A stretch of DNA of 24,000 nucleotides from Clostridium arbusti SL206 (GCF_000246895.1 NZ_BAEV01000033.1:2849-26848); one strand, 5' to 3'; shown: positions 1 to 24,000, counted from the stretch's first letter. Program-made: numbers and translations. The notes: a model not told the origin generated them from the sequence alone.

Positions 1-1061
1 TGTGCAAATCAATCAAGTGCATTTTTAACCGCTGTTAATCCACCCTTTGCAAGTCCTAAAAGTTGATTACTTAAATTAGATCCACTGCTACCCATCTTAG
101 GGAATAAATTAGTAGCTATTTGTATAACATCTTTTATAATTCCTGAAATTATAGGTGATAATGTAGTTATTGCCTGGCTTATAAATTTCATCCCATTGCT
201 AATAATATCTTTAGAGCCATTTATTGCATTTTTTATAGCATCTTGTATCTTTGGCATGTTGCCATTAAACCAAGTAACCGCACTATTAAAAGCTGGTAAT
301 AATAATGTACCAACACTTTGCCCTAATGTAGCAAGATTCAATTGTGCAACTCTAATCTGATTCGCAAAACTTCCACTTAATGTTCTGCCAAAATCCCCTT
401 GAGCATCTTTTGTAACGTTCATAAGATAATTATATCTTAATATAGTTTGTTCTGATTGACTCATTTGAGCATATGGCTTTTTAATACCTTCAGATAATGC
501 ATAAGCTTGTAAATTAGCTACGGACATGTTAATACCAAGTGCTTTTAATGGCTCCGTTTCTCCAGATATACCAGATCTGATTTTTTCCCACATATCAGAA
601 GTACCTACATTATAAAAAGAACTCATGTCTCCTGTTAGTTGTACAAGTTTCTTGGACATATCCCCAGCTTTTTGTTCAGTAACTCCACTAGATTTAAGCA
701 TAGCACCCATGAATCCAACTCATTGTGTACTAGCTGTTTGAGATATACCAGCACTTTTAGCTGTTGTTTGTGTCCAATCTTCAATAGATTTTGCACTATT
801 CTTATATGTCTGTTGGACTACATTCTGTGCTTCCGATAAATTGCTAGCACTTTCAGCCAGTTTATATCCCTGATCTATTAAGGCTTTAAAGCCAAAACCC
901 ACACCTAATACAGCGCCTAATTTAAGAGCAAGACTCCCTATTTTCCCAAAAGAGCTTTCAAATATTCCTGATAGCCCTTTTGCTTTTTCTCCTGCTTTAT
1001 CAAGTTCTGTACTTGCATTATCTTTTAGTAATAATTCTCCAAATATACTAAATAATTTCAT
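1..1061 (-). CDS. tail tape measure protein (partial, runs off the left edge), read with TGA=Trp
   Basis: Track ORFs 720..1061 and 9..710 share a frame and are separated only by TGA at 720-722 (..TASTQ-W-VGFMGAMLK..). ORF 9..710 also ends in TGA (9-11) and stays open to base 1. ATG at 1061 follows a GGGGGTG RBS. The gene lies directly downstream of the chaperone pair and has TMP-like sequence (ALGINMSVANLQAYALSEG..). Confidence 0.8.
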
Positions 1062-1064
1062 TCG

Positions 1065-1412
1065 TTAATCACCCCCTTTTTGATTATTTCTATTTAAGTT
1101 ATCTAATTTTCGTATTCTTTCCGCTTCTGCTAATGCTTCTTCTTTTGTTATTTTTTTAGAACTTTTTGTATCTGTATTTGTATTTTTAAATGCTTTATTT
1201 TTATAATCTTCAAAACTCATATAATTATTTTTATCCATATAAATATGCTCTATATTCCATTGTTCAAAGAGTCTATCTTCAGCGATCTTTATATTCATCT
1301 TTTCAATTAGTTTAAATCCATCAAAAAATCTTAAATTAATTACATAATCAATATTATTGTATCTACTTAAAATTGTATCCATGCACTCATATTCATCAAA
1401 ATCTTCAGGCAC
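1065..1412 (-). CDS. tail assembly chaperone frameshift extension (gpT-like, likely made as a G-T fusion)
   Basis: This ORF is in the -1 frame relative to 1433..1777. The -1 frame is open with no stop from the slippery site at 1460-1466 through the GTG at 1412. It ends in TAA 3 nt before the TMP ATG. Confidence 0.65.
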   Translation of the reverse strand: MPEDFDEYECMDTILSRYNNIDYVINLRFFDGFKLIEKMNIKIAEDRLFEQWNIEHIYMDKNNYMSFEDYKNKAFKNTNTDTKSSKKITKEEALAEAERIRKLDNLNRNNQKGGD

Positions 1413-1432
1413 TATACTATGTGCAAATTGAA

Positions 1433-1777
1433 TTATTTTGCAGAGTTCAGTGCCTGTCCGAAAAAATCAGAAAATTGGTCATCATTAAATATTGAATTTA
1501 CTATCTCCATAACATCTTTTAATTCCATGTTTTCTACTTCACCTATAGACTGGCTACTTATATCTGCAAATAATTTATATATTTCTTGTTGTGCATCTCC
1601 TAAATGTTCTACAAATAACATTGTTAATTCTACTTGTAGATTTTGCTGTGCTTCTTCTTTTTCTTTAGGAGTTTTGTTTGATATATCTGTTATTAATCCT
1701 TTTATTTCTGCCTTTATATTCATTTTTTTAATAATTCTAGTTAATGTAAATAGATCTCCAAATTGTAATTTTCTCAT
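1433..1777 (-). CDS. tail assembly chaperone (gpG-like)
   Basis: 114-aa ORF between the major tail gene and the tape measure gene. It ends in TAA and carries a slippery heptamer near its 3' end. Confidence 0.7.
   Translation of the reverse strand: MRKLQFGDLFTLTRIIKKMNIKAEIKGLITDISNKTPKEKEEAQQNLQVELTMLFVEHLGDAQQEIYKLFADISSQSIGEVENMELKDVMEIVNSIFNDDQFSDFFGQALNSAK
1460..1466 (-). promoter_or_regulatory. -1 programmed ribosomal frameshift slippery heptamer U_UUU_UUC
   Basis: The minus strand reads GAT TTT TTC in the zero frame, giving X_XXY_YYZ = T_TTT_TTC. A -1 shift reads TTT TTT CGG ACA GGC ... ATA GTG CCT GAA, which joins ORF 1065..1412. Confidence 0.65.
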
Positions 1778-1855: not shown

Positions 1856-2752
1856 TTAGTTGTTCGTTACAGTTGTTGTTGGAATTGAATTTAAATACAA
1901 TCCGTTTGTAGATTTAACATTGTTAAGCATATTTGTATTTTTATTATATGCCACTGTAACTATTTGACCACTTGTTGGTACTGTAGTTAATGTTAATTCT
2001 ATTGTATTTTGGTTATTAACCCCTATTTCTGCATCTGTAATAACATCTGTTGTAGCAATACCATCTATTGTATCTGCTACTGTTACCGTAAAGCCATCTT
2101 TTGGTACTGGAGTCGTTACTGTATCTGTAAATGTTAATAATACCTTATTATTAGATATAATAGGTGTTTGGCTTAATGTAAATATAGTTGATACATTTGC
2201 TTTTGGGAACCTAATTTCGAATGGCAATTCATCTATAGCATAAGGATCTATATAAGCTGTAAATGTACATGCTAAAACGTTATCATTATCGTCCTTTGTA
2301 TTTCATTTGAGTCCATCTGTATTTGCTGCATTCTTTAGAATTATAATAACTGGTAATTCACTTCCACTTATTTTTCCCACTAATGCTAGATTTTCTAAAT
2401 AATCCGATTCATCTAAACTAGTTTTACCTGTTATAATATCATAACTTGCATCTGAGTCGGTGTCTATATTTCCTCTCAATAATAATGTTAATATTTCTGC
2501 TGTAACTTCCAATAAATTTGTTGCCAAAGTTACTGTTGTATTCGTAATAATTTCTCCATACTTCATATCACCTTTAATTCCATCGATCTTAATTGTACGG
2601 GTATTACTTTTTACTGTGAACGTATTTCCACCTGCTGTAGCACCAATTAAAGCTTCTTTATCTGTACCATAATTTTTATATAATGCTCCAGCATCTATTA
2701 ATAAATTATTAGGTGTATTGGGTGTAAAACCAACTGTTTTTGTATTATTCAT
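1856..2752 (-). CDS. major tail protein with C-terminal Ig-like domain, read with TGA=Trp
   Basis: Track ORFs 2303..2752 and 1856..2227 are in one frame. Between them the sequence reads TGA (2303-2305) AAT ACA AAG GAC ... GAA TTG CCA TTC with no other stop. The total of 897 nt is 299 codons. The N-terminal part resembles siphovirus major tail proteins. The C-terminal part (FTVTVADTIDG..IELTLTT..GQIVTVAY) resembles a bacterial Ig-like repeat. Confidence 0.75.
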
Positions 2753-3862: not shown

Positions 3863-3882
3863 CCTCTTTTTTATATATTTAA

Positions 3883-4578
3883 TTAAATTGCTTTTTTATA
3901 TTTCTCTAAATATTCATCATAATACATCCAAACCATTTTAGTTCTATTAGGTAATCTACCTGCTGTTTTGTATTTACCTTTACAACACTTGGATATACTA
4001 GATTGTGGTATACCATATTTTTTAACAGCTTGATTAATATAACCAAATATTTCACCTGTAGTACTACAAATTATTTTTCTTGCCTGCGGATGATTTGCAC
4101 CACTGAAATTAGCATGACTTTCTCTTAATTTTTTTCTTATCTCTTCTGAAGTATTATAATATTTTTTAGCTTCACTTATTTTTTTCTTCGCTTCCTCTGA
4201 ACAATGATGACCTTTATGTGATTCACTGATCTTATATCTAATTTCATTCATTTCTTGCTCTGTTTTACCAGCATAAGTATTTCCACCATCTCCACCATCA
4301 GCAATATTATAATAATCATCTGATTTAACTGCATTATGTAATTTAATAAATTCAATCTCTAATTTATTTGATTCTTCTCGTGAATAAGTAATTGCAACTA
4401 TATCTCTATGAAAATTTTCTTTACCATATTTTTCTATAGCATGATTTAAATAAATTCCACTACCTAAATAATTTTCTCATTTATTCCTAATGTCAAACAT
4501 CTTTTGACCTATGTATTTTTTACCATTAACCATGTTAGTTGTTATGTATATAAAACCATATGGATTTTCTATCTCCAA
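3883..4578 (-). CDS. free-standing GIY-YIG homing endonuclease (I-TevI-like, NUMOD3 repeats plus C-terminal HTH), read with TGA=Trp
   Basis: A TTG start at 4578 follows a GGGGGTG RBS. The N-terminus, absent from the track, reads LEIENPYGFIYITTNMVNGKKYIGQKMFDIRNK-W-ENYLGSG, with TGA at 4477-4479. It runs in frame into track ORF 3883..4251, which has SEEAKKKISEAKK-type NUMOD3 repeats. The total of 696 nt is 232 codons. Confidence 0.85.
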
Positions 4579-4639
4579 TCAAACACCCCCTGATTTTTTA
4601 CATTAAAAAAGAGCAAGACTACAGTTACTACTGAAAATC

Positions 4640-5141: not shown

Positions 5142-6065
5142 TTAAGCTAAAGCTTCTTTAATATTTGCAAAACAATGTGCTAACATATTGTCTGGAATCC
5201 AAAGATCATGATACTTTCTATAGTCTAATTTATATGCTCTTGCACTCTGATTAGTCTCAGGATCAAATATTCTTATAGCATCAGTTTTAGAAACTGCTAT
5301 AGGACAAGTCTGTGCACAAATTAACCAATTAATATTTTTAGCTGCTGCATCTGCTACAAAACCACCTGCTGTTTGTCCTGCTGTCTTACCATCATTGAAT
5401 ACATAAGCTGTCTTTAATCTACTTGAAGGCGCTGGAATAATAGGATTATCGTCTACCATAGTAACTTTAGTAGAAAAAACTCCGCTTGCAAAATCAGTAA
5501 CTTGAAGCTGTTTTGCTATTTCTGTAGAACTTTCAAGAATATTTTTAGTTATTGAACTCATTGTAATAACTAGTGGTACATCACCTACAACATCCTTTAC
5601 TGCTGCAATATCAGCTTTCAATTTAGAAAGTATAGTTTCTGCTGCTGGAAGATAACCACCACTCGCTCTATTTCCTTCTATTGCTAAAGATGCTATTTTA
5701 CTATATCTGTAAGCATCTATCTCAGGAATAACTTGTGTTCTCTGAAACTGTGCCATAACATTACTTGCAGTTACAACAAAGTTACTTTCATCTACTTCAT
5801 TTTCATCTATGGAAAAACTTCTACCTCTATCCTGTGTCATAGTCTTTGTTTCATATTCATGTGTTACATCTCCTGCTGTAAAACCCAGTGCTCTATCATA
5901 ATTTGCTAAACCATCCATACTAATGTTAGGTATCTTTATTTCTTTACCGCCACGATATATAACTTGTCCAGCATTTGCTTCCATTCAGCCACTTGTAGCA
6001 CCTGCCACTGCTTGAGCATCTAATGCGTTTTGAAATAAACTTGCGTATTCTATTGTATTTGCCAT
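5142..6065 (-). CDS. major capsid protein, read with TGA=Trp
   Basis: ATG at 6065 gives MANTIEYASLFQNALDAQAVAGATSG-W-MEANAGQV..., with TGA at 5985-5987, in frame with track ORF 5142..5984. The total of 924 nt is 308 codons. The gene follows the scaffold gene. Confidence 0.85.
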
Positions 6066-6818: not shown

Positions 6819-7724
6819 TTAATCTATTCCCTTTTCTTTTGCCCAAGAATCATAATCTTGATAGTCTATTAATTCTCTACTTTCATTATCAAGTCTTTTA
6901 CTTGGCTTCCAATCATCACTAGGCATATTTATAAGTACACAGCGACATCCTGGATGATTTTCAGGAGGAACTACTTTATCTGGATCATCAATATCATAAA
7001 CGTGCCCATCAAGTGCTGCACATTCTTCACTTGTTTTACCATCTAAAGTAGCAGTATACATTTGTTTCTCTACACCTACATTTCTTCCTAAATCATCTAT
7101 AGCCTGTGATTGAACCCTAGCATTTTCAGTATTAACTAGCCTTTGACTTTCATAAGCACTTACATTAAACTGCTGTCTTATATTTCGTGCTAATTTATCT
7201 AAATGAATATCTCCATTCATGGCATCAACTATTCCCTGTTTAACATTGTCCACTAAATTAGCTTTGTTAGTCCATATTCTATCTGAAAATATCTTACCAT
7301 CAATAGGATTGTTTACTGCTGCGTCAATGTATTCCTTTTTTAAGATACCAAAGTTAAGCACATCCTTCATACCGCTATCAAGTATATAAGCATTGTGATA
7401 ATAAACCATAGGATAAGTGTCAGCTAATATATTAATTACCTGGTCCACTTCTTGCTGACCTAAATTTTTACCCATATCTTTAAGCTTTTTATCTATATCA
7501 GCTAATAAGACTTTTTTCTGCTGTAGTGTTACATTTAATAATCCATTTTCAGCATTTTTTATATACAGCATACCTAAATATTGATGCAATTCTTCTAAAT
7601 TAGCTTTTTGATTAGAATATACACTCTTCATTTGTTCATCAGCATATTTTTCAGCATCTAACTTAATTTGTTCAATCATCTTTTGATACATAGGATTTAA
7701 AGTATTAACCATCTGTACCACCAC
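6819..7724 (-). CDS. minor head/morphogenesis protein (SPP1 gp7 / Mu F-like)
   Basis: The C-terminal motifs NTENARVQSQ and TATLDGKTSEECAALDGHVY..PPENHPGCRCVL are typical of the Mu F / gp7 family. The start overlaps the portal 3' end. Confidence 0.8.
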   Translation of the reverse strand: MVVQMVNTLNPMYQKMIEQIKLDAEKYADEQMKSVYSNQKANLEELHQYLGMLYIKNAENGLLNVTLQQKKVLLADIDKKLKDMGKNLGQQEVDQVINILADTYPMVYYHNAYILDSGMKDVLNFGILKKEYIDAAVNNPIDGKIFSDRIWTNKANLVDNVKQGIVDAMNGDIHLDKLARNIRQQFNVSAYESQRLVNTENARVQSQAIDDLGRNVGVEKQMYTATLDGKTSEECAALDGHVYDIDDPDKVVPPENHPGCRCVLINMPSDDWKPSKRLDNESRELIDYQDYDSWAKEKGID

Positions 7725-9015
7725 TTAATAAGTCTGCTCCTATAGAATTAGCTTTATTTTCTTCCTGCAATTGCTTCATTTCAGCACCTGGATTAGAAAC
7801 AAAACTTAATTGACTTAATCCAGTTTTAATAGATAGCTTTCCATTAAGTTGAGATATTATTTGAGCCATCATTAAATCATCACTTGGTATGTTTGGAGTA
7901 AACTTAGAATCTATATCTTTCCACTCATAAGACTTGTTTTCTTTAATTTTAAGATATTCAAATAAGAATTGTAATCTTAATTTAATAGCATCAGCTAAAG
8001 CCTGAATATTATCACTGCATTTCTGCTCTAAGCTTATAAGTCTATTCTTTAAAGCTAAACTAGATGTATTACTAGCTAATTTCTCATTGTGGTTTATATG
8101 GGAACTTAATTGATATATTTTATCTTCCTGGGTAGATAATGTATTTTGTATAAAGCTATCATTTATATTTTTTATTACCCATGCCGCATCTGAATCCTTA
8201 TTAGGCATATTTAAGATACCTAATTCTTTCATTTTATCTAAATCTGTTTTTCCATTTTCATCTTTCGTTTCATCATCTAATTCACAACCTGTTATTTTTA
8301 AATAGGCATTACGAAAATCAGATATTTCGTTACTTATGTCACTTAAATTAGTTTCATAAGCATCTTGAAGTCCTTTTATCTTTTTATATAAACTCTCATA
8401 ATAAGAACCTATTTTCACTATACTTACTGGCACTTTAGAGAATATATTTTCATCTACTTTAGAACCCTTTATAAGTTCAAAACTTGAGCCTACACAAGTA
8501 TAGTGTGTTATATCTTCGTTAGTATAAACATCAGCATATAATGTCTTTGATTCATCAAACTTCTTACTAAAAAATCTTATAAATAATTCTATATTGCCAA
8601 AATCATCTTGTAAAATATAACTATCTCTTGGAGTACATATAAGACTATTAAATAATCCATCTGAATCTATATAATATAATTCATAGGCTTCATTATAAAT
8701 CAAAGCTTCTTTACACAACTCTTTATCATGATTAGTATTTCAATGCTTAAAATTAAGTCTTAAATCTTCTATAACATTACTGTCATTACTGTGGCTTGAA
8801 TAAGTAATTTTATTTCCACAACAATAAGAAGCTTCTTCATTAACAAACTTCTGAATAAAGTTACATGAGAGTTTATTATTACTTCTCTTAGTAACCATTT
8901 GATAATGTAGCATAGCATCTGTATATCCATCATAATATCTTCTCATGGTTTCATATCTATGTAACTTTAAATCAAAATCAGTTTTACATTGTGTTAGTAA
9001 ATTATTATTAATCAA
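7705..9015 (-). CDS. portal protein (SPP1 gp6-like), read with TGA=Trp
   Basis: Track ORFs 8740..9015 and 7705..8718 are in one frame. The junction reads ..LNFKH-W(TGA 8740-8742)-NTNHDKELCKEALIYNEAYELYY... The total of 1311 nt is 437 codons. A TTG start follows an AGGAGG RBS. Confidence 0.85.
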
Positions 9016-9053: not shown

Positions 9054-10793
9054 CTATAATCCTAGCTTTCTTCTATCTAAAATCTTTATTTTTTGTATAA
9101 CTTCAATTTCTTTAATATCAATTGTTGATTGTGCTACTGCATCTGGAGCATCATCATGTTCTGAATACTCCTGTCCACAAAAACTCATTATTTGCTCTAT
9201 AAAATCTGTATCATCTTGATTAAATATAATTCTGCCATTATTTACATCACTTATGATAGTAGATATTTTTTCATCTTTATTTTTCTTCTGCATTCTGTTT
9301 ATAAATGTGATATTTCTATATTTTAATTCATCATCTTTATTAATTAATTCTTTAATCTTTAATACATCAGCACTCATATATAGATTTTTTTCTATAGATA
9401 CATGAGTTATTTCGGGGAAATCCCTTAAAAGCTTTATAACATGATTACAAAAATCATCAAAACCTACTTTTAATAATTCACCTTTTTTAATATAAAGAAA
9501 ATCATTGTCAGCTAAACCACCAACTGCAAAAGCTGAATAATCGGCTTTATTGCTTATACTATTAGCTGGATCACAAACAAGGATATTTTTAATAAAATTA
9601 TGGCCTTGAATTTCTTCTAAAGATTGAGTTCTATTAGATATGAACCACTTTTCACCTATTTTTGATGCATCGTTCATCATTTCCTGTTTAAATGCCACTG
9701 GATTATTATAGTAATCTATAGCTAAATCTAAACAATCATATTTATCGGGCCATAAGGTTTTATATTGCATCTCTTTTTCGTGGTGATAATAAAATTCTTT
9801 GGCATCTGCAACACTATCCTTAGATTTATCATCAAAATAAAGCTGTCTGAATTTCTCTCAGATACCTTCATGGAAATATTCATCAACATTAAAGTTAACT
9901 ACTCTTTTAACTATATGTTTATAATCCTTATTCTTAAGTAATCTACTCATAAAACAATCTCTATGTAAAATAGTTCCAAGTACAATAAACTTTGTAGCCA
10001 TTTTTATCTTATGTCCATCACGGACAACTGCTTTATCTCCAGCATATTGAGAATCTTCTACCCATGTATTATACTTTTTATCTCTTGCTTCTGCTGTAAT
10101 ACAATCACTTTTTGATTGATAATCGTCTGCAATAATTACGGAAGGTCTATAACCGGAATATTTCTTACCTCTCATACTAGATGTACTAGAAATAGCTTGT
10201 ATTTTCGTTTTATTAGATAATTCCAATTCTAATTTATTTACTGTATACCTTTTTGGCTCGATAAGTTTACCAAAAGATTTTATTATGTATTTATTTTCTT
10301 CAAAGGCTTGTCTAGTTTGTGCTATAAACTCTGTAGCATCTTGCTCTGTTTTTCCTGCAACCAATGTATATATAGACTTCTTATAACAATGTAATCATAC
10401 AGATATTGCAAAATCACAGACCGTTGTCTTACTACTCCCTCTAGGCATAATTAATTCTAATTTATCTATAGTATCCTTTAAAAATGCATTTTCTAATTGT
10501 TCCCAAATCTCATAATGTACTGGTGCTAATATTCTAGCTGTATTATCTTCTTTAGGTAGAAATGTATCTTGAAGGTAATATAAACAGAAAAATTCTATAG
10601 AATATGCTCCAAGTTGTGCTGCTAAAGAATTTATTCCAAATAAGTTGTCCGCATGGGACGATACTATTTCTTCTGCTTTCATTTCTGCATCTGATTGATT
10701 AAATCCACTTGATATTAATTGCTTAGTTGTATATTTATATAGCAGATATCTGTTTTTTTCGTCTTCTGTGCTAAAATTTATATTATCTATCAA
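9054..10793 (-). CDS. terL: terminase large subunit, read with TGA=Trp
   Basis: Three track ORFs (10395..10793, 9858..10364, 9054..9770) share one frame. They are joined by TGA at 10395-10397 (..PRGSSKTTVCDFAISV-W-LHCYKKS..) and TGA at 9858-9860 (..FHEGI-W-EKFRQLYFDD..). There is a Walker A-like GSSKT motif. The total of 1740 nt is 580 codons. Confidence 0.9.
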
Positions 10794-14498: not shown

Positions 14499-15331
14499 TT
14501 ATTCTGTTAATCCCATTCTCTCTAGTAATAAATCTATTTCTTCCTTTTCTTGTGGTATGTCATAATTACTTATAATCAACTCACCATAATGTTTCCTACT
14601 ATCCTTTGAAGCACTATAAAATACTTCATGCTCCATAATATTAAAATCTTTAAATAGCTCTCTTATATATTCATCATTATTAATTGTATATAAAAATTTG
14701 CCTTTAGCATTTCTACAACATTCTGCTAGTAATCTATACTGTTCATCTGTAAATTTACCTACTGCATATTGCTTTGTATTTCTATAAGGACTATCAACAA
14801 AGAAAAATGTATCTGGTTTATCGTATATTCTAAATATATCCTCAAAAGATTTATTCTCTATAACTACAGTTTGTAGTCTCATATATGCTGCAGTAATATC
14901 TTCTTCTATTTTATCAATTTTTAAACCATTTCTACTTTCTGCACCCGTACCAAATATAGGATTACGCATATCACTGGCAAATCCTGCCTTAACTAAATAA
15001 TAAAATATATGTGCTCGCTGTATAGCATCCTCATATATTCCTTCTTTATATATCTGTTTATATTGATTAAATAGTTCTCTACTAACTAGAGTATAGTCAA
15101 AACTATTTATAAATTGGTCTGGAGCATTCTTTACTACACTCCAAAAATTCATTAAGTTACTATCAAAATCGTTTAAAATTTCTACTTTAGAAGACTCTTT
15201 ACCGAATAATAAATGACCTGCCCCCCAAATACTTCAACATATGTTTTATGCTCTGGAATTAATGGCAACAGCTTATGCACCATTCTTGATTTGCCTCCAA
15301 CTCAACTTAAAGGACTTTTTATTTTAGACAT
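14499..15331 (-). CDS. Dam-type (D12 class) N6-adenine DNA methyltransferase with an in-frame TGA=Trp, interrupted by a frameshift in a G6 tract
   Basis: ATG at 15331 gives MSKIKSPLS-W(TGA 15302-15304)-VGGKSRMVHKLLPLIPEHKTYVEVFGG. The frame then breaks at GGGGGG (plus C6, 15221-15226). One extra G would give ..FGGAGHLLFGKESSKVEILNDFDSNLMNFW.., joining track ORF 14499..15152. That ORF has a catalytic DSPY motif in VDSPYRN. The length of 833 nt is not a multiple of 3. Confidence 0.8.
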
Positions 15332-15352
15332 TTGTTTACTCCTCCTATCACC

Positions 15353-15981: not shown

Positions 15982-16302
15982 TTACTTATGTAACAAACTC
16001 AATAACAATAATATAATTGACATAGCTATAGATATTCCTATTCCAGCTTGCCACTGCCAACTAGCATTATCTTGTTTACCACTATCCATTAAATAACCAT
16101 CAAATTTATCCGCTCATTTATTAATTGTATCTGTTAATCTCTCCATACTTTTATTTAAAGTTTTAATTGTTGCGTCTTGTGTTGCTGAGGTCACCTTTAT
16201 ATCACTAATATCATCCTCATTCTTTGTAATTCTTTTATCGTGATCATCTAGTCTTTTATCATGATTTTCTAATTTCTCTAATATAACATCTTCTTGCTGC
16301 AT
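15982..16302 (-). CDS. XhlA-like (hemolysin XhlA family) coiled-coil protein with a C-terminal membrane anchor, read with TGA=Trp
   Basis: ATG at 16302 follows a GAAAGGTAGG RBS and gives MQQEDVILEKLENHDKRLDDHDKRITKNEDD...TDTINK-W(TGA 16114-16116)-ADKFDGYLMDSGKQDNASWQWQAGIGISIAMSIILLLLSLLHK, ending in TAA. The transmembrane tail appears only if TGA is read through. Confidence 0.55.
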
Positions 16303-16311
16303 AATAAGCAC

Positions 16312-16559: not shown

Positions 16560-17234
16560 CTAGTCTGGGAATTTTACCACCTGAATATGGTCACCTTTGA
16601 GGGGGAGCGTTATAATTTCTCTTAAAAGTTGATCTGCAAAATCTTCTTGATTATCGTCTTTAACATTACTAATATCTTTATTTATAATATAATATCCGTA
16701 TTCATCAACAAATAATTTCCTTTGAGATAGATTATATTGTAACTTCTCCAGGTCATTATACAGTTCATATGTATTCATATTATATAGGTGTACAAATACA
16801 TAATCATCATTTTTTATATGTATACCTATAGGTCAATGTAAGGCTGCCTTTTTACCTTTACATCTATCATCTATATAGTCTATCTCAAAATCAATTATGT
16901 CATCTAATTTATCCAATTTATCACATATATATCAGACTATATCATCCTTAGCGGAAGGTGTATTATATAACTTATACCCAAGCTTTCTATATTTATCTAT
17001 TTCCTGTAATTCCCTGAATTTTGATTCCTTATTACTGGAGCATTCATCAATGACCTCAAATTTAAAATTATCTGCTCCATATTCATCTCAATCTATCTGT
17101 AAATCTTTATTTATATGTTTACCATTATTTAATTCACTAATATGAGATTCTCACCGATGCTTAATATCTAAACTTCTTCCTATGTATATCTTATTTGTAT
17201 CTTGTAAATTTGTAATCTTATAAATACCTATCAT
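16560..17234 (-). CDS. second free-standing GIY-YIG endonuclease, read with TGA=Trp (4 in-frame TGA)
   Basis: ATG at 17234 follows a GGGGAGG RBS and gives MIGIYKITNLQDTNKIYIGRSLDIKHR-W-ESHISELNNGKHINKDLQID-W-DEYGADNFKFEVIDEC...YNTPSAKDDIV-W-YICDK...AALH-W-PIGIH... It runs into track ORF 16560..16778. The TGA codons are at 17151-17153, 17088-17090, 16932-16934 and 16833-16835. The total of 675 nt is 225 codons. Confidence 0.85.
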
Positions 17235-17937: not shown

Positions 17938-19437
17938 TTATTTATCTACATTATATATAATTTTACCTACTATCCAGTAAGATTTTTCCCTTTTAACTTT
18001 TCCATTTTCGTCTCTATATGTTTTTGTTTTAGGTACGTCAATAACATATGGTATACCCTGCTCTTTAAAACTAGCATTAAAACTATTAGGACTTTTAAGT
18101 TGTTTTCTATCTTGCCTTAAGTCAATAAATTCAATTAATTCCTTTTGCTTATCTTTATATAATTTTTGTCCAGTAATTTCTTTGAGTAATTCTTCTAAAC
18201 TCATGATTTCTGTAGTTGTCTCAAGTTCTAAAATAAAAGTTTTATCAACGCTTAATGCTGTTGCAATCATATTTTTATAATTAAAATTATTTTTCTTACT
18301 AAGAATTGCATTATATAAAATTAAATCTTCCTGATATTTTGTATACATACACTCATTAACAACCTTTTTTATACTATTATCAGTATTTAAAATATCATCA
18401 ATAATCCTAGTATCTGTAAATCTTTCATTTTTAAATTTATGCTTTACATATTCCTCTTGTCCATGATCTAATAAATAATCTGCTCTTTCAAGAGAATTCG
18501 TAATTTTACTTTTAAATCCATTGATTCTCCTATTATCTTTATAGTTATAGAAATATAAATTTATTGATTCACCTTCACCTATCCGTTTTCTACCCAAACA
18601 CTGAATAAATTCATCTGGATCAAATATATCTATTATAATATGCTTTACTGGAGTACCTTCTTTTACATTTACACCATTATCTAAAGCTGTAGTTATACAT
18701 AGTAAATGGTTTTTAAACTCTCCGTTTTCTATTATATTAGTTCTTTCTTCCTCATTCTCAGTATCTTTTACATATTTATCGTAATATTGATTATACTGAC
18801 TACAGATAAAAGCACCGTTATGTTTCTTACTTATTTCTAATGCTCTCTTGGCGCTGGTAAATAATAAGATCTGTTCCTCTTGGGGAATATCTTCTATAAT
18901 ACTATCTATACTTTCATATGTACTAAAGGCTGTTATATTTCTTATGTAACTATAATCTGTAGATAATTCATATTTGTAATCTATAATAATATCGTTACTT
19001 TTAAAATAATTCTCTAATATCCTTGGAGTAGCAGTTAATAGTATTTTGCATATAGTATTATCTTTTATCATTCTTTTAAAAGATAAATCTGTTTTTATAT
19101 TGAACGTTGAATCTGAAAAATAGTATTGACTCTCATCAAATATTACGTAATCATAGTTATCAAAAGATATATTATTCAATATAAACGTTTCTATCTTCTG
19201 ATAATTCATCACGGTTATATTACTAAATTCCCCTATATCTCTTTTAACTTGATCTTTTAAAGCATTTCTATTAGTTAAATAAAGAATATTACTTCCTTGT
19301 ATGCTGCAATATGTATTTAAAATGTTTTTAATAAAATAACTTTTTCCCCTGCCCGTACCTGCTTTAATTAAAATTAAATTTCCTTTGCTCCATGATTTAT
19401 ATTCTTCTTGTATAACATCTGTAATTCATTTTTTCAT
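17938..19437 (-). CDS. SF2 (DEAD/DEAH-like) helicase, read with TGA=Trp
   Basis: ATG at 19437 gives MKK-W(TGA 19426-19428)-ITDVIQEEYKSWSKGNLILIKAGTGRGKSYF (Walker A) ..., in frame with track ORF 17938..19212. That ORF has VIFDESQ (motif II) and QCLGRKRI (motif VI-like). The total of 1500 nt is 500 codons. Confidence 0.85.
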
Positions 19438-19469: not shown

Positions 19470-19655
19470 TTAATTATATTTTCTACTTACCCATTGATGG
19501 AATACATTTTGTAATTCTTTAGAGTCTTTAAATTTTATATATACATCATTTTTACCACCAACACCAAATTCCACTGGTACTTGTCCATTTTCCAAATAAA
19601 AATTTGCTTGATCCATATTATAGATATATCTATAATCTTTTATTGTTTGATTCAT
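19470..19655 (-). CDS. small DUF5659-like phage protein
   Basis: 61-aa ORF. The pattern YIYNMDQANFYLENG..VYIKF......VFHQW resembles DUF5659. It is a paralog of 20541..20708. Confidence 0.45.
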   Translation of the reverse strand: MNQTIKDYRYIYNMDQANFYLENGQVPVEFGVGGKNDVYIKFKDSKELQNVFHQWVSRKYN

Positions 19656-19717
19656 AATTTAATATCTCCCCTTATTTTTTATAACATATTAATTTTGTTT
19701 CTTCCAATTTGGAAGAA

Positions 19718-19918
19718 CTAAGTTATATCTACTGTTTTAGTTTTCCCACTTACTTTATGGGGCTGCGAGACGAAATCTTCACGATCCTCTGAAGGTACGT
19801 CAAGTAATGCATAAAGTTTTGATGTCGTTAAACCTGCCAACGTTGGCACATTTCCAAACTCTTTAGCCAATCTCATAAATTTATTAGCTGTGGTTTGGTG
19901 GAAATCAACTTTCCACAA
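19718..19918 (-). CDS. DUF3102-like C-terminal fragment/protein
   Basis: The sequence WKVDFHQTTANKFMRLAKEFGN...LYALLDVPSEDREDF resembles the second half of DUF3102 proteins. There is only a TTG start, no clear RBS, and an in-frame TAA 14 codons upstream. Confidence 0.35.
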   Translation of the reverse strand: MWKVDFHQTTANKFMRLAKEFGNVPTLAGLTTSKLYALLDVPSEDREDFVSQPHKVSGKTKTVDIT

Positions 19919-19994
19919 GTTTTTGTCAGAAGTTAAATTGTAACAGCGTTGTTACATTTCCAAATTCTTAACCGGTTCAGAATTTGAAAATTCC

Positions 19995-20189
19995 TTAACC
20001 ACTCGGAAGATTAATCCGAAACCGGTTGCGTATTGTTCTTACATCAACTCCTAATTCCTTAGCCATTTGTTCTTGAGTAATCAAACCTGCATTTTGCTTG
20101 TTTGATTTTCTGTCTCCACCTCTTGTAATCCCACAGAGTTTCTCATATTCCTGATAAACTTTACCTTGTTTTATCGGATTATTGGTCAT
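19995..20189 (-). CDS. small HTH DNA-binding protein (putative)
   Basis: 64-aa ORF with ..RGGDRKSNKQNAGLITQEQMAKELGVDVRTIRN.., an HTH-like segment. Confidence 0.4.
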   Translation of the reverse strand: MTNNPIKQGKVYQEYEKLCGITRGGDRKSNKQNAGLITQEQMAKELGVDVRTIRNRFRINLPSG

Positions 20190-20252
20190 TAAGATTATCT
20201 GTATGGGAACTTTATATTTGCTTCGGCGAAATTATTTCCATTAAGCAATATG

Positions 20253-20315
20253 TTGGACAATTAAATCATTTTGGTCACCAACATGTTGTCCAAATTTTGG
20301 ACAACTAAATCATTT
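20253..20315. repeat. TTGGACAA box cluster (direct repeats plus a perfect 21-bp palindrome)
   Basis: TTGGACAA(T/C)TAAATCATTT occurs at 20253-20271 and 20297-20315. A perfect palindrome GTTGTCCAAA-T-TTTGGACAAC lies at 20285-20305. A second palindrome, TTGGTCACCAA, lies at 20271-20281. Confidence 0.7.
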
Positions 20316-20533
20316 CCGTATATTGATTGTTCACAATAATCTGCAAAAATATTATAACCTAATACCTGATATAATCTCGTATCTCTCATTTGTTTTAGTT
20401 CTAAAGAAAATTCTACTAGTGCCTGTGCTGCTATCTTACCACTGTTTAATATTTTCTTATGTAAATCTTGTGCTGCTTGTACTTCTTCCACATTAAGTAC
20501 TTTATCTTCCATTAAATCTTTTAATTGATTCAA
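20261..20533 (-). CDS. hypothetical protein (helical; start uncertain)
   Basis: 90-aa ORF with a TTG start and no clear RBS. An internal ATG (MEDK) is possible. It ends in TAA. Confidence 0.4.
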   Translation of the reverse strand: MNQLKDLMEDKVLNVEEVQAAQDLHKKILNSGKIAAQALVEFSLELKQMRDTRLYQVLGYNIFADYCEQSIYGNDLVVQNLDNMLVTKMI

Positions 20534-20540
20534 CTTTTTA

Positions 20541-20708
20541 TTATTTATTTAGTAAGTATTTATCCCACTTGTCTTGTAATTCATTAAATAAATCATTTAC
20601 TTTAAATTCTATATAAGCCTTGTATTTATCTATTCCGCATCCAGTTACAGACGCACCTTTATTAATAAATATATTTGCTTGATATAGATTAAAAAATCTT
20701 TTTTTCAT
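20541..20708 (-). CDS. small DUF5659-like phage protein (55 aa, paralog of 19470..19655)
   Basis: ATG at 20708 follows an AAGGAGA RBS and gives MKKRFFNLYQANIFINKGASVTGCGIDKYKAYIEFKVNDLFNELQDKWDKYLLNK, ending in TAA. It is below the track size cutoff. Confidence 0.45.
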   Translation of the reverse strand: MKKRFFNLYQANIFINKGASVTGCGIDKYKAYIEFKVNDLFNELQDKWDKYLLNK

Positions 20709-20806
20709 CTAATTGTTATCTCCTTAATTTATATGTATCATCATTACCCTGCTTGAAATTCCACAGTGCTCACAAATTTGAAGTGTTTAAAAATATTGAT
20801 TTATGC

Positions 20807-21007
20807 TTACTCTAAATACTTGACATCTTGGAGTAATTTAACTACTTTTTCAAAATTCTTTGTTCTCATATCTCTATCACCTAATATAAAATGTGATATT
20901 GTACTTTTAGCTAAATCCAATTGCTTAGCTATATGTATATATTTAATGCCTTTATCTGTGCAATAATTTATAAGTTGTTTTCGTACTCCTTCCTGACCAT
21001 AATCCAT
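20807..21007 (-). CDS. XRE/Cro-like HTH transcriptional regulator
   Basis: 66-aa ORF with an HTH segment (IKYIHIAKQLDLAKSTISHFILG) and an AAAGGAGA RBS. Confidence 0.6.
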   Translation of the reverse strand: MDYGQEGVRKQLINYCTDKGIKYIHIAKQLDLAKSTISHFILGDRDMRTKNFEKVVKLLQDVKYLE

Positions 21008-21057
21008 TTTGATCTATCTCCTTTGTTAAAATTCTTTATTAAAGTTACTAAAGTTGC

Positions 21058-21094
21058 TTAAAAAAAATATATAAAGGGACTAACTCTAGTCCCT
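21058..21094 (-). terminator. rho-independent terminator
   Basis: The minus strand reads AGGGACTA-GAGT-TAGTCCCT, followed by TTATATATTTTTTTT. Confidence 0.65.
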
Positions 21095-21157
21095 ATGTAC
21101 TCAAAAAAAGTTGCATGACATTAATTCCCCATGCGCAGTATATTATTTCAATTTAAA

Positions 21158-21181
21158 GGAGGCGGTGAGATTTGAACTCAC
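21158..21181 (-). other. tRNA 3'-end-like fragment (T-arm plus acceptor 3' strand); possible att core or tRNA mimic
   Basis: The minus strand reads GTGAG-TTCAAAT-CTCAC-CGCCTCC-T. This is a 5-bp T-stem with a canonical TTCAAAT loop followed by 7 nt. I found no matching 5' acceptor strand, D-arm or anticodon arm upstream. Confidence 0.4.
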
Positions 21182-21262
21182 ATAAAATATACAAAATTAC
21201 CAAATTAACACATAGTTCATTCGTGAATTTAGTTAAGTTTCATGTCTTAACTAAATAGATAA

Positions 21263-21282
21263 GGGGAGAAATAAATCTCCTC
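21263..21282. terminator. stem-loop terminator after the RNA polymerase gene (possibly bidirectional)
   Basis: GGGGAGA-AATAAA-TCTCCTC forms 7 bp including one G-U pair. It is T-rich on both sides and lies about 115 nt downstream of the TAA at 21398-21400. Confidence 0.45.
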
Positions 21283-21397
21283 TTTCCTTATACCCACCAT
21301 TTTTGAGACATTTTGACGATAACATTCTTATATTCGTTTTAGAACTATTTTTAATTTACATAATTTACAAGTCTGCACGTAAATTACAAAAACGCTC

Positions 21398-23836
21398 TTA
21401 TTTTTCAGTTTCCAATTTTTTACTATCACCTTCTTTAAATACTGATAGAAATATATCTTTATCCAATTTATACAATATATTTAATAACTCTAATTTATAC
21501 TTAAAATCAAATTTCTCTTCTAATATATCCATAATAATGCTATGTATTGTTTCTTTATTCATTATAAACTTGCTTAAATTGTCAAGATAAATAGATCGTA
21601 CTTTACTTATCTTTCTATATTTTTCCTTTTGTTCTTCTTTATCATTATTGTCTACTTTATTATTATATGTGCTCTGTATCTCCTTAAATTTATTAATCAT
21701 CTTTTTAGCAATCTCTATTATATTTTTCCTTTTTCTACTTTCAGCTTTACTGTCTATGTTATCAATGTAATTTTTAATAGGTTTAGCATGTGTAGTATCT
21801 GCTGGCTTAATTCCATTCATTATTTCTTGTAAATAATCCATTGGGCAATTGTACTTTATGAACCTAATTTTTTTATCTTTATCTTTCTTTTTACCTTTCT
21901 TTTTATTTTGACTTACATATTTAAAAAATAAAGGTTTAGATACATGTAATAGATTACTTTTGTTCAAGCTATCAATTTGCTCTTTTATATTTACATCATA
22001 CATTCTCTTAGCATTGTCTATACAAATCTCTGATAAGATGGTACATATATCAATTTTCTCTAATAACTCATTCAATCTAGTATCATTTTTATCTTTACTA
22101 TATAAATCCCAGTAAGTTGACATAAATAATTGTCCTAAATTTACTACAGTACCTATATTTTTCTGACTCTCTGCTAGTATATTATCTATTACTGCCATAT
22201 CTTTAGTACCTACAGTATAAGAATTAATGTTTTTATTTACTCCATTCTCACAAACTCTATATTGGCTCTCTGGACTTTTAATATAACATTTTCTTGCTCT
22301 AGATAATAAAGTATCATTATTTATTAATAGTAAATTATCTGAATCACAATCCTGGCCTGATAATATTCTATTTATTGGAAAATTTATAGCATTTGTGTAA
22401 ATGATGTTGTTAGTGAGATTAAAATATTTAGATATAAAATCATTATCTTTATTCTTAAGGATTAGTACGTTGCTTTGGCTTGTGTGTGGATTTCTAAATG
22501 AAACATACTCATTATTAAAAGGGTGTAGTTTTGTATAAGCTTCATTTTCCTTTAAGATCATTCTATCTTGCCATTTATCATAATCAAGGATTAACTCACC
22601 TTTTTTATTTCTATTTGTTGGTAATTGCTTCACGACATGATATAATAATTCCTTGCCATTTTGAACAATTGTTGTATAGTCCCCGGGTAATCTTATTTTC
22701 CCATGTTTTATATATTTAACATAATTATGGATATCTGATTTTCTTTTCTTTTTAAATAAGTCTGTATATATAAGTTGGTTATTATGTTTATATAGATCTA
22801 CTATCATCTCATTAGTATTGTTATCATTTACGTTTTTAAATAAATAATCTATGTACACATCATTATTATTTTTTAACTTTTGTATGTAATTTACTTCAAA
22901 TTCACTTAATTTCTTCATATCTTCTTGATCTAAAGGAATACTATTTAATTGCTGATATGACATTTGGTTTATTATATTTCCTTCTACATCATACCCTCTT
23001 TGGCTCTCATGTTCTACCTTCACGATACCGAAAATATGATCTTCATCTTCAATTTTTCTTTTCCAGTGATCCCACATCTTGGGTTTACTACCTTTTACCT
23101 TATTAAATTTTAAGGCCTTAAGGGAATTTGGTGTGGTTATCATAAGTATATCTTTAGCTAAAATTGTATCTCCAAACATATTAGTTAATTCCCATGTATC
23201 ATAATCTATATGATGTTCTGTTGCATAATCCTTTAAAAATTGCTGTATATTAGTATTAAAAACTGCACATTTAAACATATGCTGCCTTAATAGTAAGAAT
23301 CCAGTATTTTCATATTTTCCTACAAATTGACTCGAATCTAAAAGACCTTCGCCATCGAAAATATCATTTGTCATCGTATAATCATTTTGTTGCTTACTTA
23401 CTAATAATACTGGTTTCTTATCTTTTCCCTCTGTATCTAAATTTTCTTGTGTGTTTTCAGCTTCGGCAGAAATCTGCACAACCTGAGGATTATCATTCTT
23501 TTCTTTTTCCTTTTCCACTATATTACAATTAATTTTAAATACAGATTGTACATCGTCTACAAGCAAAATATTTTTAGGATCTATTTTAATAGTGCCCTCG
23601 ATACTACTGCTTACCAAGCTTTCGTAGGTCAGAAGACCTGGATAATCTATATCATTTTTACCTTCTAAAGTCATTCCTAATCTTTGCCATTTTATCATCT
23701 TATCTCTAAGTTGCTTCCTTATAAATAACACCTGGCCTGTCCGGCTCTTACTCGAGGTTCGACTATAGACTACATAATCAATTGTTTTTTTACCTATAAT
23801 AAGAGAAAAGCCTTCTGTGTACAACTTTTTTCTCAA
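21398..23836 (-). CDS. YonO / cellular-RdRP-like single-subunit (double-psi beta-barrel) RNA polymerase, putative
   Basis: 812-aa ORF. It contains VSFRNPHTSQSNVLILKN...NIIYTNAINFPINRILSGQDCDSDNLLLINND. This parallels the RdRP/QDE-1 catalytic region (..RxPxxxxxD(I/V)....(I/V)xF....LSGGDxDGDxxxVxWD). The N-terminal YSRTSSKSRTGQVLF resembles the RdRP S-S-x-x-R-x-x-x-x-F element. The frame stays open upstream to a TAA at 23981-23983 with no canonical start, so the N-terminus is uncertain. There is no in-frame TGA. Confidence 0.6.
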   Translation of the reverse strand: MRKKLYTEGFSLIIGKKTIDYVVYSRTSSKSRTGQVLFIRKQLRDKMIKWQRLGMTLEGKNDIDYPGLLTYESLVSSSIEGTIKIDPKNILLVDDVQSVFKINCNIVEKEKEKNDNPQVVQISAEAENTQENLDTEGKDKKPVLLVSKQQNDYTMTNDIFDGEGLLDSSQFVGKYENTGFLLLRQHMFKCAVFNTNIQQFLKDYATEHHIDYDTWELTNMFGDTILAKDILMITTPNSLKALKFNKVKGSKPKMWDHWKRKIEDEDHIFGIVKVEHESQRGYDVEGNIINQMSYQQLNSIPLDQEDMKKLSEFEVNYIQKLKNNNDVYIDYLFKNVNDNNTNEMIVDLYKHNNQLIYTDLFKKKRKSDIHNYVKYIKHGKIRLPGDYTTIVQNGKELLYHVVKQLPTNRNKKGELILDYDKWQDRMILKENEAYTKLHPFNNEYVSFRNPHTSQSNVLILKNKDNDFISKYFNLTNNIIYTNAINFPINRILSGQDCDSDNLLLINNDTLLSRARKCYIKSPESQYRVCENGVNKNINSYTVGTKDMAVIDNILAESQKNIGTVVNLGQLFMSTYWDLYSKDKNDTRLNELLEKIDICTILSEICIDNAKRMYDVNIKEQIDSLNKSNLLHVSKPLFFKYVSQNKKKGKKKDKDKKIRFIKYNCPMDYLQEIMNGIKPADTTHAKPIKNYIDNIDSKAESRKRKNIIEIAKKMINKFKEIQSTYNNKVDNNDKEEQKEKYRKISKVRSIYLDNLSKFIMNKETIHSIIMDILEEKFDFKYKLELLNILYKLDKDIFLSVFKEGDSKKLETEK

Positions 23837-24000
23837 ATCTTCTTGATTAATCTCTTGATAACTTGGATCTTGCGTTTTGCCAACGAGAAAATCTGTATAT
23901 TCTTTTAATTTTTTATCATAATCTTGATCTTTCTCTAGCAGTTGACCGTCAACCTTTTGTTTTTCTAATTCTAATCTTTTTTATTTGTATATTCAATTAT

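What the first reader, a model, noticed from the sequence alone, without database searches (positions are those of the whole stretch)
1..24000. TGA is read as Trp (genetic code 4) across the window; the standard-code ORF track fragments at least 10 genes
There are fifteen in-frame TGA codons on the minus strand. They lie at 9-11, 720-722, 2303-2305, 4477-4479, 5985-5987, 8740-8742, 9858-9860, 10395-10397, 15302-15304, 16114-16116, 16833-16835, 16932-16934, 17088-17090, 17151-17153 and 19426-19428.

Each one sits between two same-frame ORF pieces, and reading through restores recognisable full-length proteins. These are tape measure, major tail, GIY-YIG #1, capsid, portal, TerL (two sites), Dam methyltransferase, XhlA-like, GIY-YIG #2 (four sites) and helicase.

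Several TGA codons fall exactly at family-conserved Trp positions:
- Dam: SPLS-W-VGGKS
- GIY-YIG: KHR-W-ESH and NK-W-ENYLGSG
- Capsid: TSG-W-ME

Every reconstructed gene ends in TAA or TAG and none ends in TGA. No in-frame TAA or TAG is needed to join fragments. This is the signature of a TGA-recoded genome. The source is either a phage of a code-4 host or an alternatively coded phage of a standard-code host, as described for gut phages.
Basis: partly seen in the sequence, partly recalled or inferred. Interest (0 to 1): 0.9.

Follow-up and report, generated by a model that had tools for sequence, protein, structure and literature searches.

The report
TGA-as-tryptophan phage in Clostridium arbusti
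This is a phage carried by a cultured, standard-code soil bacterium (Clostridium arbusti) that has very recently started using the stop codon TGA for tryptophan; the phenomenon is known, but here it sits in a host that can be grown and tested.

Summary
All 15 sites read TGA on the minus strand and lie in frame in ten genes: tape measure, major tail, capsid, portal, TerL, helicase, Dam, two GIY-YIG endonucleases and an XhlA-like gene. In about 100 related loci the aligned residue is Trp in 79% of cases, against 74% at the window's own TGG columns, and Gly is essentially absent. Sequence downstream of the TGAs is under purifying selection (dN/dS 0.04-0.3). No gene ends in TGA.

One correction: reading through does not restore Dam on its own. 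It also needs a -1 frameshift at a G6 run.

Exact window proteins are RefSeq entries of Clostridium arbusti on a 36,288-bp contig, where table 11 splits TerL into 132 + 168 + 238 aa. The host is therefore a standard-code Clostridium.

Recoding is recent and narrow. Apart from a 1.5-kb contig carrying a diverged GIY2 homolog, only two IMG/VR contigs share in-frame TGAs. Relatives up to 87-92% identical in TerL have TGG, and TGA makes up only 23% of Trp codons.

No suppressor tRNA lies in the 24 kb, so how TGA is decoded remains inferred. This is a new member of a known kind (Borges et al.).

The parts
1..1061 (-). Tape measure protein, N-terminal 353 codons (the gene runs off the window at position 1). 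In-frame TGA at 720-722 and 9-11.
   Evidence: phrog_1535 tape measure. The L001 homolog has TGG at both columns. L005 has TGG at 114 and TGA at 351.
1856..2752 (-). Major tail protein with a C-terminal Ig-like/SWM repeat. TGA at 2303-2305.
   Evidence: phrog_885, spanning the TGA. PF13753 at residues 189-273. L001, L110 and L113 have TGG at this column. RefSeq splits the gene into 149 + 123 aa.
3883..4578 (-). GIY-YIG homing endonuclease #1. TGA at 4477-4479. It sits on an insertion (3845-4661) that is absent from L005.
   Evidence: PF19835, 52.9 bits. W in 5 of 8 homologs. Absent from L005.
5142..6065 (-). Major capsid protein. TGA at 5985-5987.
   Evidence: phrog_422, positions 1-295 of 297. 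W in 25 of 29 relatives. L005 and L025 have TGG here, so this TGA is specific to the window's lineage. RefSeq calls only 280 aa.
7705..9015 (-). Portal protein. TGA at 8740-8742.
   Evidence: PF05133, positions 3-413 of 416. W in 50 of 65 relatives. TGA is shared with L004, L005 and L025.
9054..10793 (-). Large terminase. TGA at 10395-10397 and 9858-9860.
   Evidence: phrog_38. W in 53 of 65 and 68 of 68 relatives. dN/dS downstream of the first TGA is 0.09-0.11. RefSeq has three fragments: WP_050993347.1, WP_050993346.1 and WP_050993345.1.
14499..15331 (-). Dam (D12-class N6-adenine methyltransferase). TGA at 15302-15304, plus a required -1 frameshift at the G6 run 15221-15226.
   Evidence: Translations in both frames. 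The same G6 run and two-frame layout occur in L001. The corrected protein matches PF02086 over positions 1-252 of 253 and aligns with DpnM and E. coli Dam across both the W and the FxGxG motif.
15982..16311 (-). XhlA-like small membrane protein. TGA at 16114-16116.
   Evidence: Weak PF10779 match. The TGA is shared with L004 and L005, which carry two further TGAs. No outgroup homolog was found.
16560..17234 (-). GIY-YIG homing endonuclease #2. All four Trp codons are TGA (17151-17153, 17088-17090, 16932-16934, 16833-16835).
   Evidence: PF01541. I-TevI alignment. W in P0132 at 4 of 4 sites and in P0133 at 3 of 4. The homolog on L127 itself has TGA at residues 28, 49, 74 and 101.
17938..19437 (-). 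DEAD/ResIII-type helicase. TGA at 19426-19428, codon 4 counted from the likely ATG.
   Evidence: Pfam DEAD, ResIII and Helicase_C. L002 has TGG at this column, and the L002 start aligns with M at 19437. The RefSeq fragment of 423 aa lacks the Walker A segment.
19470..23836 (-). TGA-free upstream block: an 812-aa phrog_8308 protein and small HTH regulators (9 TGG, 0 TGA).
   Evidence: The absence of TGA here is not statistically significant (about 0.08, my own hypergeometric arithmetic).

Best explanation
**What it is.** The window is 24 kb of a 36.3-kb siphovirus-type phage or phage-plasmid. It is resident in Clostridium arbusti, a standard-code Clostridium known only as strain SL206.

**What is shown.**
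- In this phage lineage TGA is a sense codon for tryptophan.
- It arose recently by TGG-to-TGA (G-to-A) changes in an AT-rich genome whose ancestors already rarely used TGA as a terminator.
- TGA now accounts for about a quarter of Trp codons.
- These codons sit in genes from every module downstream of the TGA-free leftmost block: helicase, Dam, two homing endonucleases, a lysis-like gene, TerL, portal, capsid, major tail and tape measure.

**What is inferred.**
- Translation needs an opal-suppressing activity that inserts Trp efficiently. The most likely candidate is a tRNA-Trp with a UCA anticodon, encoded in the 12 kb of the element outside the window or missed by tRNA finders.
- In an unsuppressed standard-code cell, none of the virion, packaging or helicase genes can be completed.
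- Recoding may therefore also act as a translational lock on lytic functions.
For: **Sites and restored proteins:**

**Trp identity**
- W in 79% of homolog cells at TGA columns against 74% at TGG columns; Gly about 0.
- PDB alignments for Dam and I-TevI.
- GIY2 homologs.
- Fourteen of the 15 sites have outgroup Trp.

**The genes are functional, not decaying**
- dN/dS is 0.04-0.3 downstream of the first TGA. This holds even between the window and L005, which both carry TGAs.
- All 15 breaks are TGA, none TAA or TAG (P about 6e-10).
- There are no TGA terminators.

**TGA behaves as a synonymous codon**
- Between the window and L005, TGA and TGG differ at 5 of 42 shared Trp sites (12%).
- Lys, Glu, Gln and Leu A/G-ending codon pairs differ at 6.5-13%.

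**Standard-code host**
- Exact window proteins, both the table-11 fragments and the TGA-free genes, are RefSeq proteins of Clostridium arbusti on one 36,288-bp contig.
- Taxonomy places it in Clostridiaceae; the genome is BAEV00000000.
- The nearest relatives are in Clostridium genomes and MAGs, with TGG at these columns.

**Recency**
- About 100 related loci have no in-frame TGA. Only L004/L005 and L025 share them.
- P0121, 92% identical over the TerL segment, has W called under the standard code.
- The TGA share of Trp codons is 23%, against 71-84% A-ending in comparable codon pairs.

**Precedent**
- Borges et al. describe TGA-recoded phages more than 90% ANI from standard-code relatives, recoded prophages in standard-code hosts, and detectable suppressor tRNAs in only 35% of code-4 phages.
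- Cook et al. report 15%.
Against: - No tRNA of any kind, no release factor and no TrpRS was found in the window or in the clade contigs L004, L005 and L025. The decoding agent is therefore not shown.
- One third of the element (about 12 kb) could not be read.
- TGA is not confined to late genes: the helicase, Dam and both homing endonucleases carry it. The TGA-free state of the early block is not significant, so the 'lytic lock' role is weakly supported here.
- The host's own code was taken from RefSeq annotation and taxonomy, not examined directly.
- There is no protein-level evidence.
Confidence: 0.85

Rival explanations
1. There is no dedicated suppressor. The host tRNA-Trp(CCA) reads UGA at a low natural level, as reported for Bacillus subtilis (from memory: Lovett et al. 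1991). The TGAs then act as attenuators that throttle expression of phage genes, especially the toxic homing endonucleases.
For: No suppressor tRNA in 24 kb of window or in the clade contigs. GIY2 carries 4 of 4 Trp as TGA (about P = 0.002 by my hypergeometric arithmetic). TGA is still a minority Trp codon.
Against: High-copy structural genes (capsid, major tail, portal) carry TGA, and TerL has two. Within the clade, TGA and TGG interchange at about the same rate as other synonymous A/G pairs, which argues for near-neutral and therefore efficient decoding. No special nucleotide context follows the TGAs.
Confidence: 0.1
2. The host itself uses genetic code 4 (TGA = Trp), and the phage simply follows its host.
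For: TGA = Trp and the absence of TGA terminators would both be expected. Most cultured code-4 phages are Mycoplasma or Spiroplasma phages.
Against: The source is Clostridium arbusti, annotated in table 11. Relatives with TerL 85-87% identical sit in standard-code Clostridium genomes with TGG. TGA is only 23% of Trp codons at 28% GC, whereas other A/G pairs are 71-84% A-ending.
Confidence: 0.03
3. This is a decaying, defective prophage, and the TGAs are ordinary nonsense mutations (pseudogenes).
For: RefSeq annotates fragments. Dam also carries a frameshift.
Against: All 15 of 15 stops are TGA, and 14 lie at columns where homologs have Trp. dN/dS downstream is 0.04-0.3, including between two TGA-bearing genomes. 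Ten TGA sites are conserved in independent metagenome contigs. G-to-A hypermutation would also produce TAG from TGG, yet none is seen.
Confidence: 0.015
4. This is a sequencing or assembly artefact, or TGA encodes Gly (code 25) or selenocysteine.
For: None beyond the bare presence of TGA.
Against: The same TGA sites occur in independent assemblies L004/L005 and L025. Gly appears in 1 of 273 and Cys in 1 of 273 cells at TGA columns.
Confidence: 0.005

Closest known systems
TGA-recoded (code 4) 'alternatively coded' phages of standard-code hosts, such as the Agate and Jade clades (Borges et al., bioRxiv 10.1101/2021.08.26.457843)
   Same: In-frame TGA at Trp positions in structural and other genes. 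Close standard-code relatives exist. TGA terminators were already depleted ancestrally. The host is predicted or shown to use the standard code. A suppressor tRNA is often not detectable.
   Different: Those are mostly large (about 127 kb) virulent gut phages known only from metagenomes. This is a roughly 36-kb siphovirus-type element in a cultured Clostridium strain. Recoding here is at an early stage (23% of Trp codons) and also affects the helicase, Dam and homing endonucleases. No code-change operon (TrpRS, RF1, tRNA) is visible in the window.
TAG-recoded Garnet and Topaz prophages integrated in standard-code Prevotella and Oscillospiraceae genomes (same paper)
   Same: A small (about 24 kb) temperate element with recoded stops inside a standard-code bacterium. 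The recombinase or integrase gene is free of the recoded codon (g11004 here has 3 TGG and 0 TGA).
   Different: Those recode TAG to Gln. Here TGA is recoded to Trp. Integration of this element is not shown.
Clostridium phage vB_CpeS-1181 and Clostridioides phage phiSemix9P1, plus C. perfringens and C. difficile phage-plasmids
   Same: They are the closest cultured or annotated relatives by TerL (58% and 47.5% identity).
   Different: No in-frame TGA is reported or seen in the standard-code relatives examined.
Mycoplasma and Spiroplasma phages (native code 4)
   Same: TGA is read as Trp.
   Different: Those hosts use code 4 themselves. This host and all relatives are standard-code Firmicutes.

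Membership tests
Alternatively coded phage, TGA to Trp, in a standard-code host | Several in-frame TGAs in conserved genes, with read-through restoring full-length homologs | tested here: met
   15 sites in 10 genes, with full-length profile matches. Dam additionally needs a frameshift.
Alternatively coded phage, TGA to Trp, in a standard-code host | TGA columns correspond to Trp in homologs | tested here: met
   W in 215 of 273 cells, against 595 of 801 at TGG columns. Also.
Alternatively coded phage, TGA to Trp, in a standard-code host | TGA is not used as a terminator | tested here: met
   0 of 37 gene ends. The test is weak: low-GC relatives use TGA for only 7.7% of stops, so P is about 0.05.
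Alternatively coded phage, TGA to Trp, in a standard-code host | Sequence downstream of the recoded stops is under purifying selection | tested here: met
   dN/dS 0.04-0.3.
Alternatively coded phage, TGA to Trp, in a standard-code host | The host uses the standard code | tested here: met
   Indirect. The window proteins are Clostridium arbusti RefSeq entries fragmented under table 11. The lineage is Clostridiaceae. Relatives sit in Clostridium genomes with TGG. The host chromosome itself was not examined.
Alternatively coded phage, TGA to Trp, in a standard-code host | Code-change machinery is present (suppressor tRNA-UCA, RF1 or TrpRS) | tested here: inconclusive
   None in the window or in L004, L005 and L025. 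About 12 kb of the element was not available. Only 15-35% of known code-4 phages show such a tRNA.
Alternatively coded phage, TGA to Trp, in a standard-code host | Peptides spanning the recoded codon carry Trp | not testable with these tools
   Needs proteomics.
Phage of a native code-4 host (Mollicutes) | The host belongs to a code-4 lineage, and TGA is the predominant Trp codon at low GC | tested here: not met
   The host is Clostridium arbusti. TGA is 23% of Trp codons.
Code 25 (TGA to Gly) phage | TGA columns align with Gly | tested here: not met
   Gly in 1 of 273 cells, at an out-of-frame position.
Degraded prophage (pseudogenes) | A mixture of stop types and frameshifts, with relaxed selection downstream | tested here: not met
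   Only TGA is seen, and dN/dS is well below 1.

The most novel reading that the evidence does not exclude
A cultivable, standard-code Clostridium strain carries an active TGA-to-Trp phage that has no conventional suppressor tRNA of its own and recodes by a mechanism not yet described.

One specific version is suggested by a side observation. A standard-code relative from the same metagenome (L110) carries an att-type partial copy of tRNA-Trp that includes the anticodon. Integration of a copy with a mutated anticodon would convert the host's own tRNA-Trp(CCA) into a UCA opal suppressor that still reads UGG.

Nothing here shows this for the window's lineage. The UCA variant of that sequence was not found in viral contigs.
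Probability: 0.1. Interest if true: 0.85.

Novelty: new member of a known kind. Interest (0 to 1): 0.6.

Why it matters
**A tractable model.** Stop-codon recoding in phages of standard-code hosts is known almost only from metagenomes, and its mechanism and purpose are still argued from genomics. This example sits in an isolate genome, Clostridium arbusti SL206. Induction, virion proteomics, reporter assays and tRNA sequencing could therefore test directly how UGA is decoded and whether recoding gates lytic genes.

**An early snapshot of a code change.** The evidence points to a very recent event:
- Standard-code relatives are 85-92% identical.
- Only 23% of Trp codons have been converted.
- TGA and TGG are still interchanging between sister genomes.

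**A practical point.** The RefSeq annotation of this contig is fragmented. TerL is in three pieces, and the capsid, major tail protein and helicase are truncated. It would be repaired by using table 4.

Tried and rejected
**Looking for the source contig and the rest of the element**
- megablast of the whole window against phages found nothing.
- Against plasmids it found only an 82-bp portal match.
- An exact 43-mer search in viral, genome and metagenome contigs found only the relative UViG_3300042922_000484.
- The look-up of encoding contigs for window proteins and for P0131 returned nothing on record. The missing 12 kb could not be read.
- The source was finally identified by exact protein look-up.

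**Looking for a suppressor tRNA**
- ARAGORN on the window and on 115 loci found none.
- An Rfam scan at E <= 1 found none.
- The tRNA-Trp(CCA) at the end of L110 turned out to be a prophage-boundary or att copy, not a phage tRNA.
- Its UCA variant is absent from viral contigs.

**Patterns tested and not found**
- An early-versus-late bias of TGA is not significant in this window (0 of 9 Trp codons in the early block, P about 0.08).
- There is no nucleotide-context signal after TGA.

**Explanations rejected:** code 25, selenocysteine, pseudogenisation and G-to-A hypermutation.

**Other**
- A search with the TerL middle fragment found no further clade members.


Full report
**1. The observation**

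The window is 28.3% G+C. All plausible genes lie on the minus strand. All 15 listed positions read TGA on that strand.

With TAA and TAG as the only stops, the code-11 fragments fuse as follows:
- TerL: three pieces become 579 aa.
- Portal: 91 + 337 aa become 436 aa.
- Capsid: 280 becomes 307 aa.
- Major tail protein: 149 + 123 aa become 298 aa.
- GIY-YIG #2: 72 becomes 224 aa.
- Helicase: 424 becomes about 499 aa.

The fused proteins match family profiles end to end and across the TGA positions:
- SPP1_portal, profile positions 3-413 of 416.
- phrog_422 major head protein, positions 1-295 of 297.
- phrog_885 major tail protein, phrog_1535 tape measure and phrog_38 terminase.
- GIY-YIG twice, and DEAD/ResIII/Helicase_C.

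Minus-strand ORF coverage rises from 81.8% to 87.5%, and mean ORF length from 148 to 177 aa. All 37 gene ends are TAA or TAG.

If the 15 interruptions were random nonsense changes, about 24% would be TGA. Fifteen of fifteen then has P of about 6e-10.

**2.

- *Dam.* The Dam TGA (15302-15304) lies in a short frame (15182-15352) that ends at TAG. The rest of Dam (14499-15245) is in the -1 frame. The two join only by a -1 shift at a G6 run at 15221-15226. The corrected protein matches PF02086 over positions 1-252 of 253. It aligns with DpnM and E. coli Dam through both the W and the FxGxG motif.
- *The frameshift is not an assembly error.* The relative L001 has the same G6 run and the same two-frame layout, with synonymous differences on both sides.
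- *Helicase.* Two further in-frame TGAs upstream of the helicase are probably before the true ATG at 19437.

**3. What TGA encodes**

I aligned the code-4 proteins to about 100 related loci fetched from public collections. At the window's TGA columns the homologs have W in 215 of 273 cells (79%). At the window's TGG columns they have W in 595 of 801 cells (74%). Other residues at TGA columns are mainly aromatic or hydrophobic. Gly occurs once, at an out-of-frame position.

| Site | Residue in relatives |
|---|---|
| TerL 312 | W in 68 of 68 |
| TerL 133 | W in 53 of 65 |
| Portal 92 | W in 50 of 65 |
| Capsid 27 | W in 25 of 29 |
| GIY2 28, 49, 101, 134 | W in P0132 at 4 of 4, in P0133 at 3 of 4 |
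| GIY2 28 | aligns with the W of I-TevI 'EKRW' |

Only the XhlA-like site lacks an outgroup. Code 25, selenocysteine and random decay are excluded.

**4. The genes are alive**

dN/dS downstream of the first TGA is as low as it is upstream:
- TerL: 0.09-0.11.
- Portal: 0.12-0.14.
- GIY2: 0.15.
- Tape measure: 0.04-0.17.

This also holds between the window and L005, which both carry the TGAs. The read-through parts have therefore been translated since those two lineages split.

**5. Where the sequence comes from**

Exact look-up shows that the window's proteins are RefSeq proteins of Clostridium arbusti on a single 36,288-bp contig. These include both the TGA-free genes and the table-11 fragments:
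- TerL: WP_050993347.1, WP_050993346.1 and WP_050993345.1.
- Capsid: WP_010236286.1 (280 aa).
- Major tail protein: WP_243441470.1 and WP_243441469.1.
- Helicase: WP_010236325.1 (423 aa).

C. arbusti belongs to Clostridiaceae and has a single strain, SL206, in the taxonomy. Its genome is BAEV00000000.

The closest TerL homologs are from Clostridium genomes, MAGs and plasmids. L002/L073 is a prophage inside a 157-kb Clostridium sp. contig. The nearest cultured phages are Clostridium phage vB_CpeS-1181 (58%) and Clostridioides phage phiSemix9P1 (47.5%).

The host is therefore a standard-code Clostridium.

**6. How old and how wide the recoding is**

Among the related loci, only three carry in-frame TGAs: L004/L005 (IMGVR_UViG_3300042922_000484, 92-95% nucleotide identity) and L025 (UViG_3300042934_000122). 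All others have none. That group includes:
- L001, with TerL 87% identical.
- L002, with TerL 85% identical.
- L110, from the same metagenome as L005.

A TerL fragment 92% identical (P0121) also has W under the standard code.

Ten TGA sites are shared between the window and L005. Two are specific to the window (tape measure 114, capsid 27). Three are specific to L005. That gives 5 of 42 shared Trp sites differing (12%), the same range as Lys, Glu, Gln and Leu A/G-ending pairs (6.5-13%). TGA therefore behaves as a near-neutral synonym of TGG.

TGA is still only 23% of Trp codons, whereas comparable A/G pairs are 71-84% A-ending. The change is young, and TGG-to-TGA drift under AT pressure is still in progress.

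TGA terminators were already rare in the low-GC relatives (7.7%). This fits the 'ancestral depletion' step of Borges et al..

A 70%-identical homolog of GIY2 on an unrelated ENA contig (L127) has TGA at residues 28, 49, 74 and 101. Further recoded elements therefore exist, and they share this homing endonuclease.

**7. Mechanism: what is shown and what is inferred**

*Shown:* TGA is a Trp sense codon in a phage of a standard-code host.

*Not shown:* what decodes it.
- No tRNA, release factor or TrpRS is present in the window or the clade contigs.
- There is no context bias after TGA.

*Inferred:* near-neutral TGA/TGG interchange, and TGA in high-copy structural genes, argue for efficient suppression. 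I therefore favour a dedicated tRNA-Trp(UCA) elsewhere in the element. Known code-4 phages often lack a detectable one.

*The 'lytic lock' idea is only weakly supported here.*
- In favour: TGA-bearing genes occur in every module downstream of the TGA-free leftmost block. The recombinase and the leftmost regulators have none.
- Against: the helicase and Dam also carry TGA. The early-block depletion is not significant (P about 0.08, my own arithmetic).

**8. Comparison with what is known, and verdict**

This matches the alternatively coded phages of Borges et al. in every defining feature that could be tested. The recoded codon (TGA to Trp), the closeness to standard-code relatives and the residence in a standard-code bacterium all have precedents. 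It is a new member of a known kind.

Its value lies in three things:
- The host is cultured.
- The recoding is at an early stage.
- The public annotation can be corrected.

Interest is 0.6.

Noticed in passing
window 15221-15226 (G6 run, minus strand), within Dam 14499-15331; L001 about 5150: Dam needs a -1 frameshift at a GGGGGG run. The same run and the same two-frame layout are conserved in the standard-code relative L001, with synonymous changes on both sides. This suggests programmed slippage or a phase-variable tract rather than an assembly error.
   Followed up: partly
window 1460-1466 (minus strand T_TTT_TTC), between g1433 (1433-1777) and g1065 (1065-1412): A canonical -1 slippery heptamer sits in the overlap of the two small genes between the major tail protein and the tape measure. 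This is the usual G/GT tail-chaperone frameshift. The last -1-frame TGA lies just upstream of the site, so no TGA decoding is needed here.
   Followed up: partly
window 13833-13917 (-): A strong match to the skipping-rope RNA motif (RF02924; 64.6 bits against a gathering score of 36.7) lies in the intergenic region between g13987 and g13240.
   Followed up: no
window 17615-17850: A G+C-richer intergenic stretch folds unusually well on the minus strand (z = -5.5) and contains a long hairpin. The segment 17707-17848 aligns to L004 and L005 in the opposite orientation from its flanks. The ORF listed there (17621-17806) looks spurious. It could be a non-coding RNA, an origin, or an invertible or palindromic element.
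   Followed up: partly
window 11004-11585 (-); L002 9211-9783: A short (193 aa) tyrosine recombinase (PF00589) lies between the TerS-like HTH gene and TerL. The arrangement is conserved in the Clostridium sp. prophage L002. It carries 3 TGG and no TGA.
   Followed up: no
window 3845-4661 and 13243-15349: Two blocks are absent from the sister genome L005. One holds GIY-YIG #1. The other holds g13240, the PBECR3 nuclease and Dam. Both look like mobile or accessory insertions, and the genes on them already carry TGA.
   Followed up: partly
L127 (ENA ERZ1760298 NODE_4145) 984-1445: A 70%-identical homolog of GIY-YIG #2 on an unrelated short contig has in-frame TGA at residues 28, 49, 74 and 101 and TGG at 134. 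This is evidence for other TGA-recoded elements that share the endonuclease. In the window, GIY2 has 4 of 4 Trp codons as TGA.
   Followed up: partly
L110 15153-15227 (IMGVR_UViG_3300042922_000922): A standard-code relative from the same metagenome as L005 ends in a tRNA-Trp(CCA) copy. Its first two acceptor bases do not pair (TT instead of AG). That makes it an att-type partial copy that includes the anticodon. Other phages (L117-L119) carry internal 3'-partial tRNA-Trp copies. The UCA version was not found.
   Followed up: partly
window 21398-23836 (-) and 23837-24000: The 812-aa phrog_8308 protein matches its family profile only from position 126 onward. It has about 50 open codons upstream with no ATG, GTG or TTG. 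Its N-terminus may be encoded differently or may lie beyond the window.
   Followed up: no
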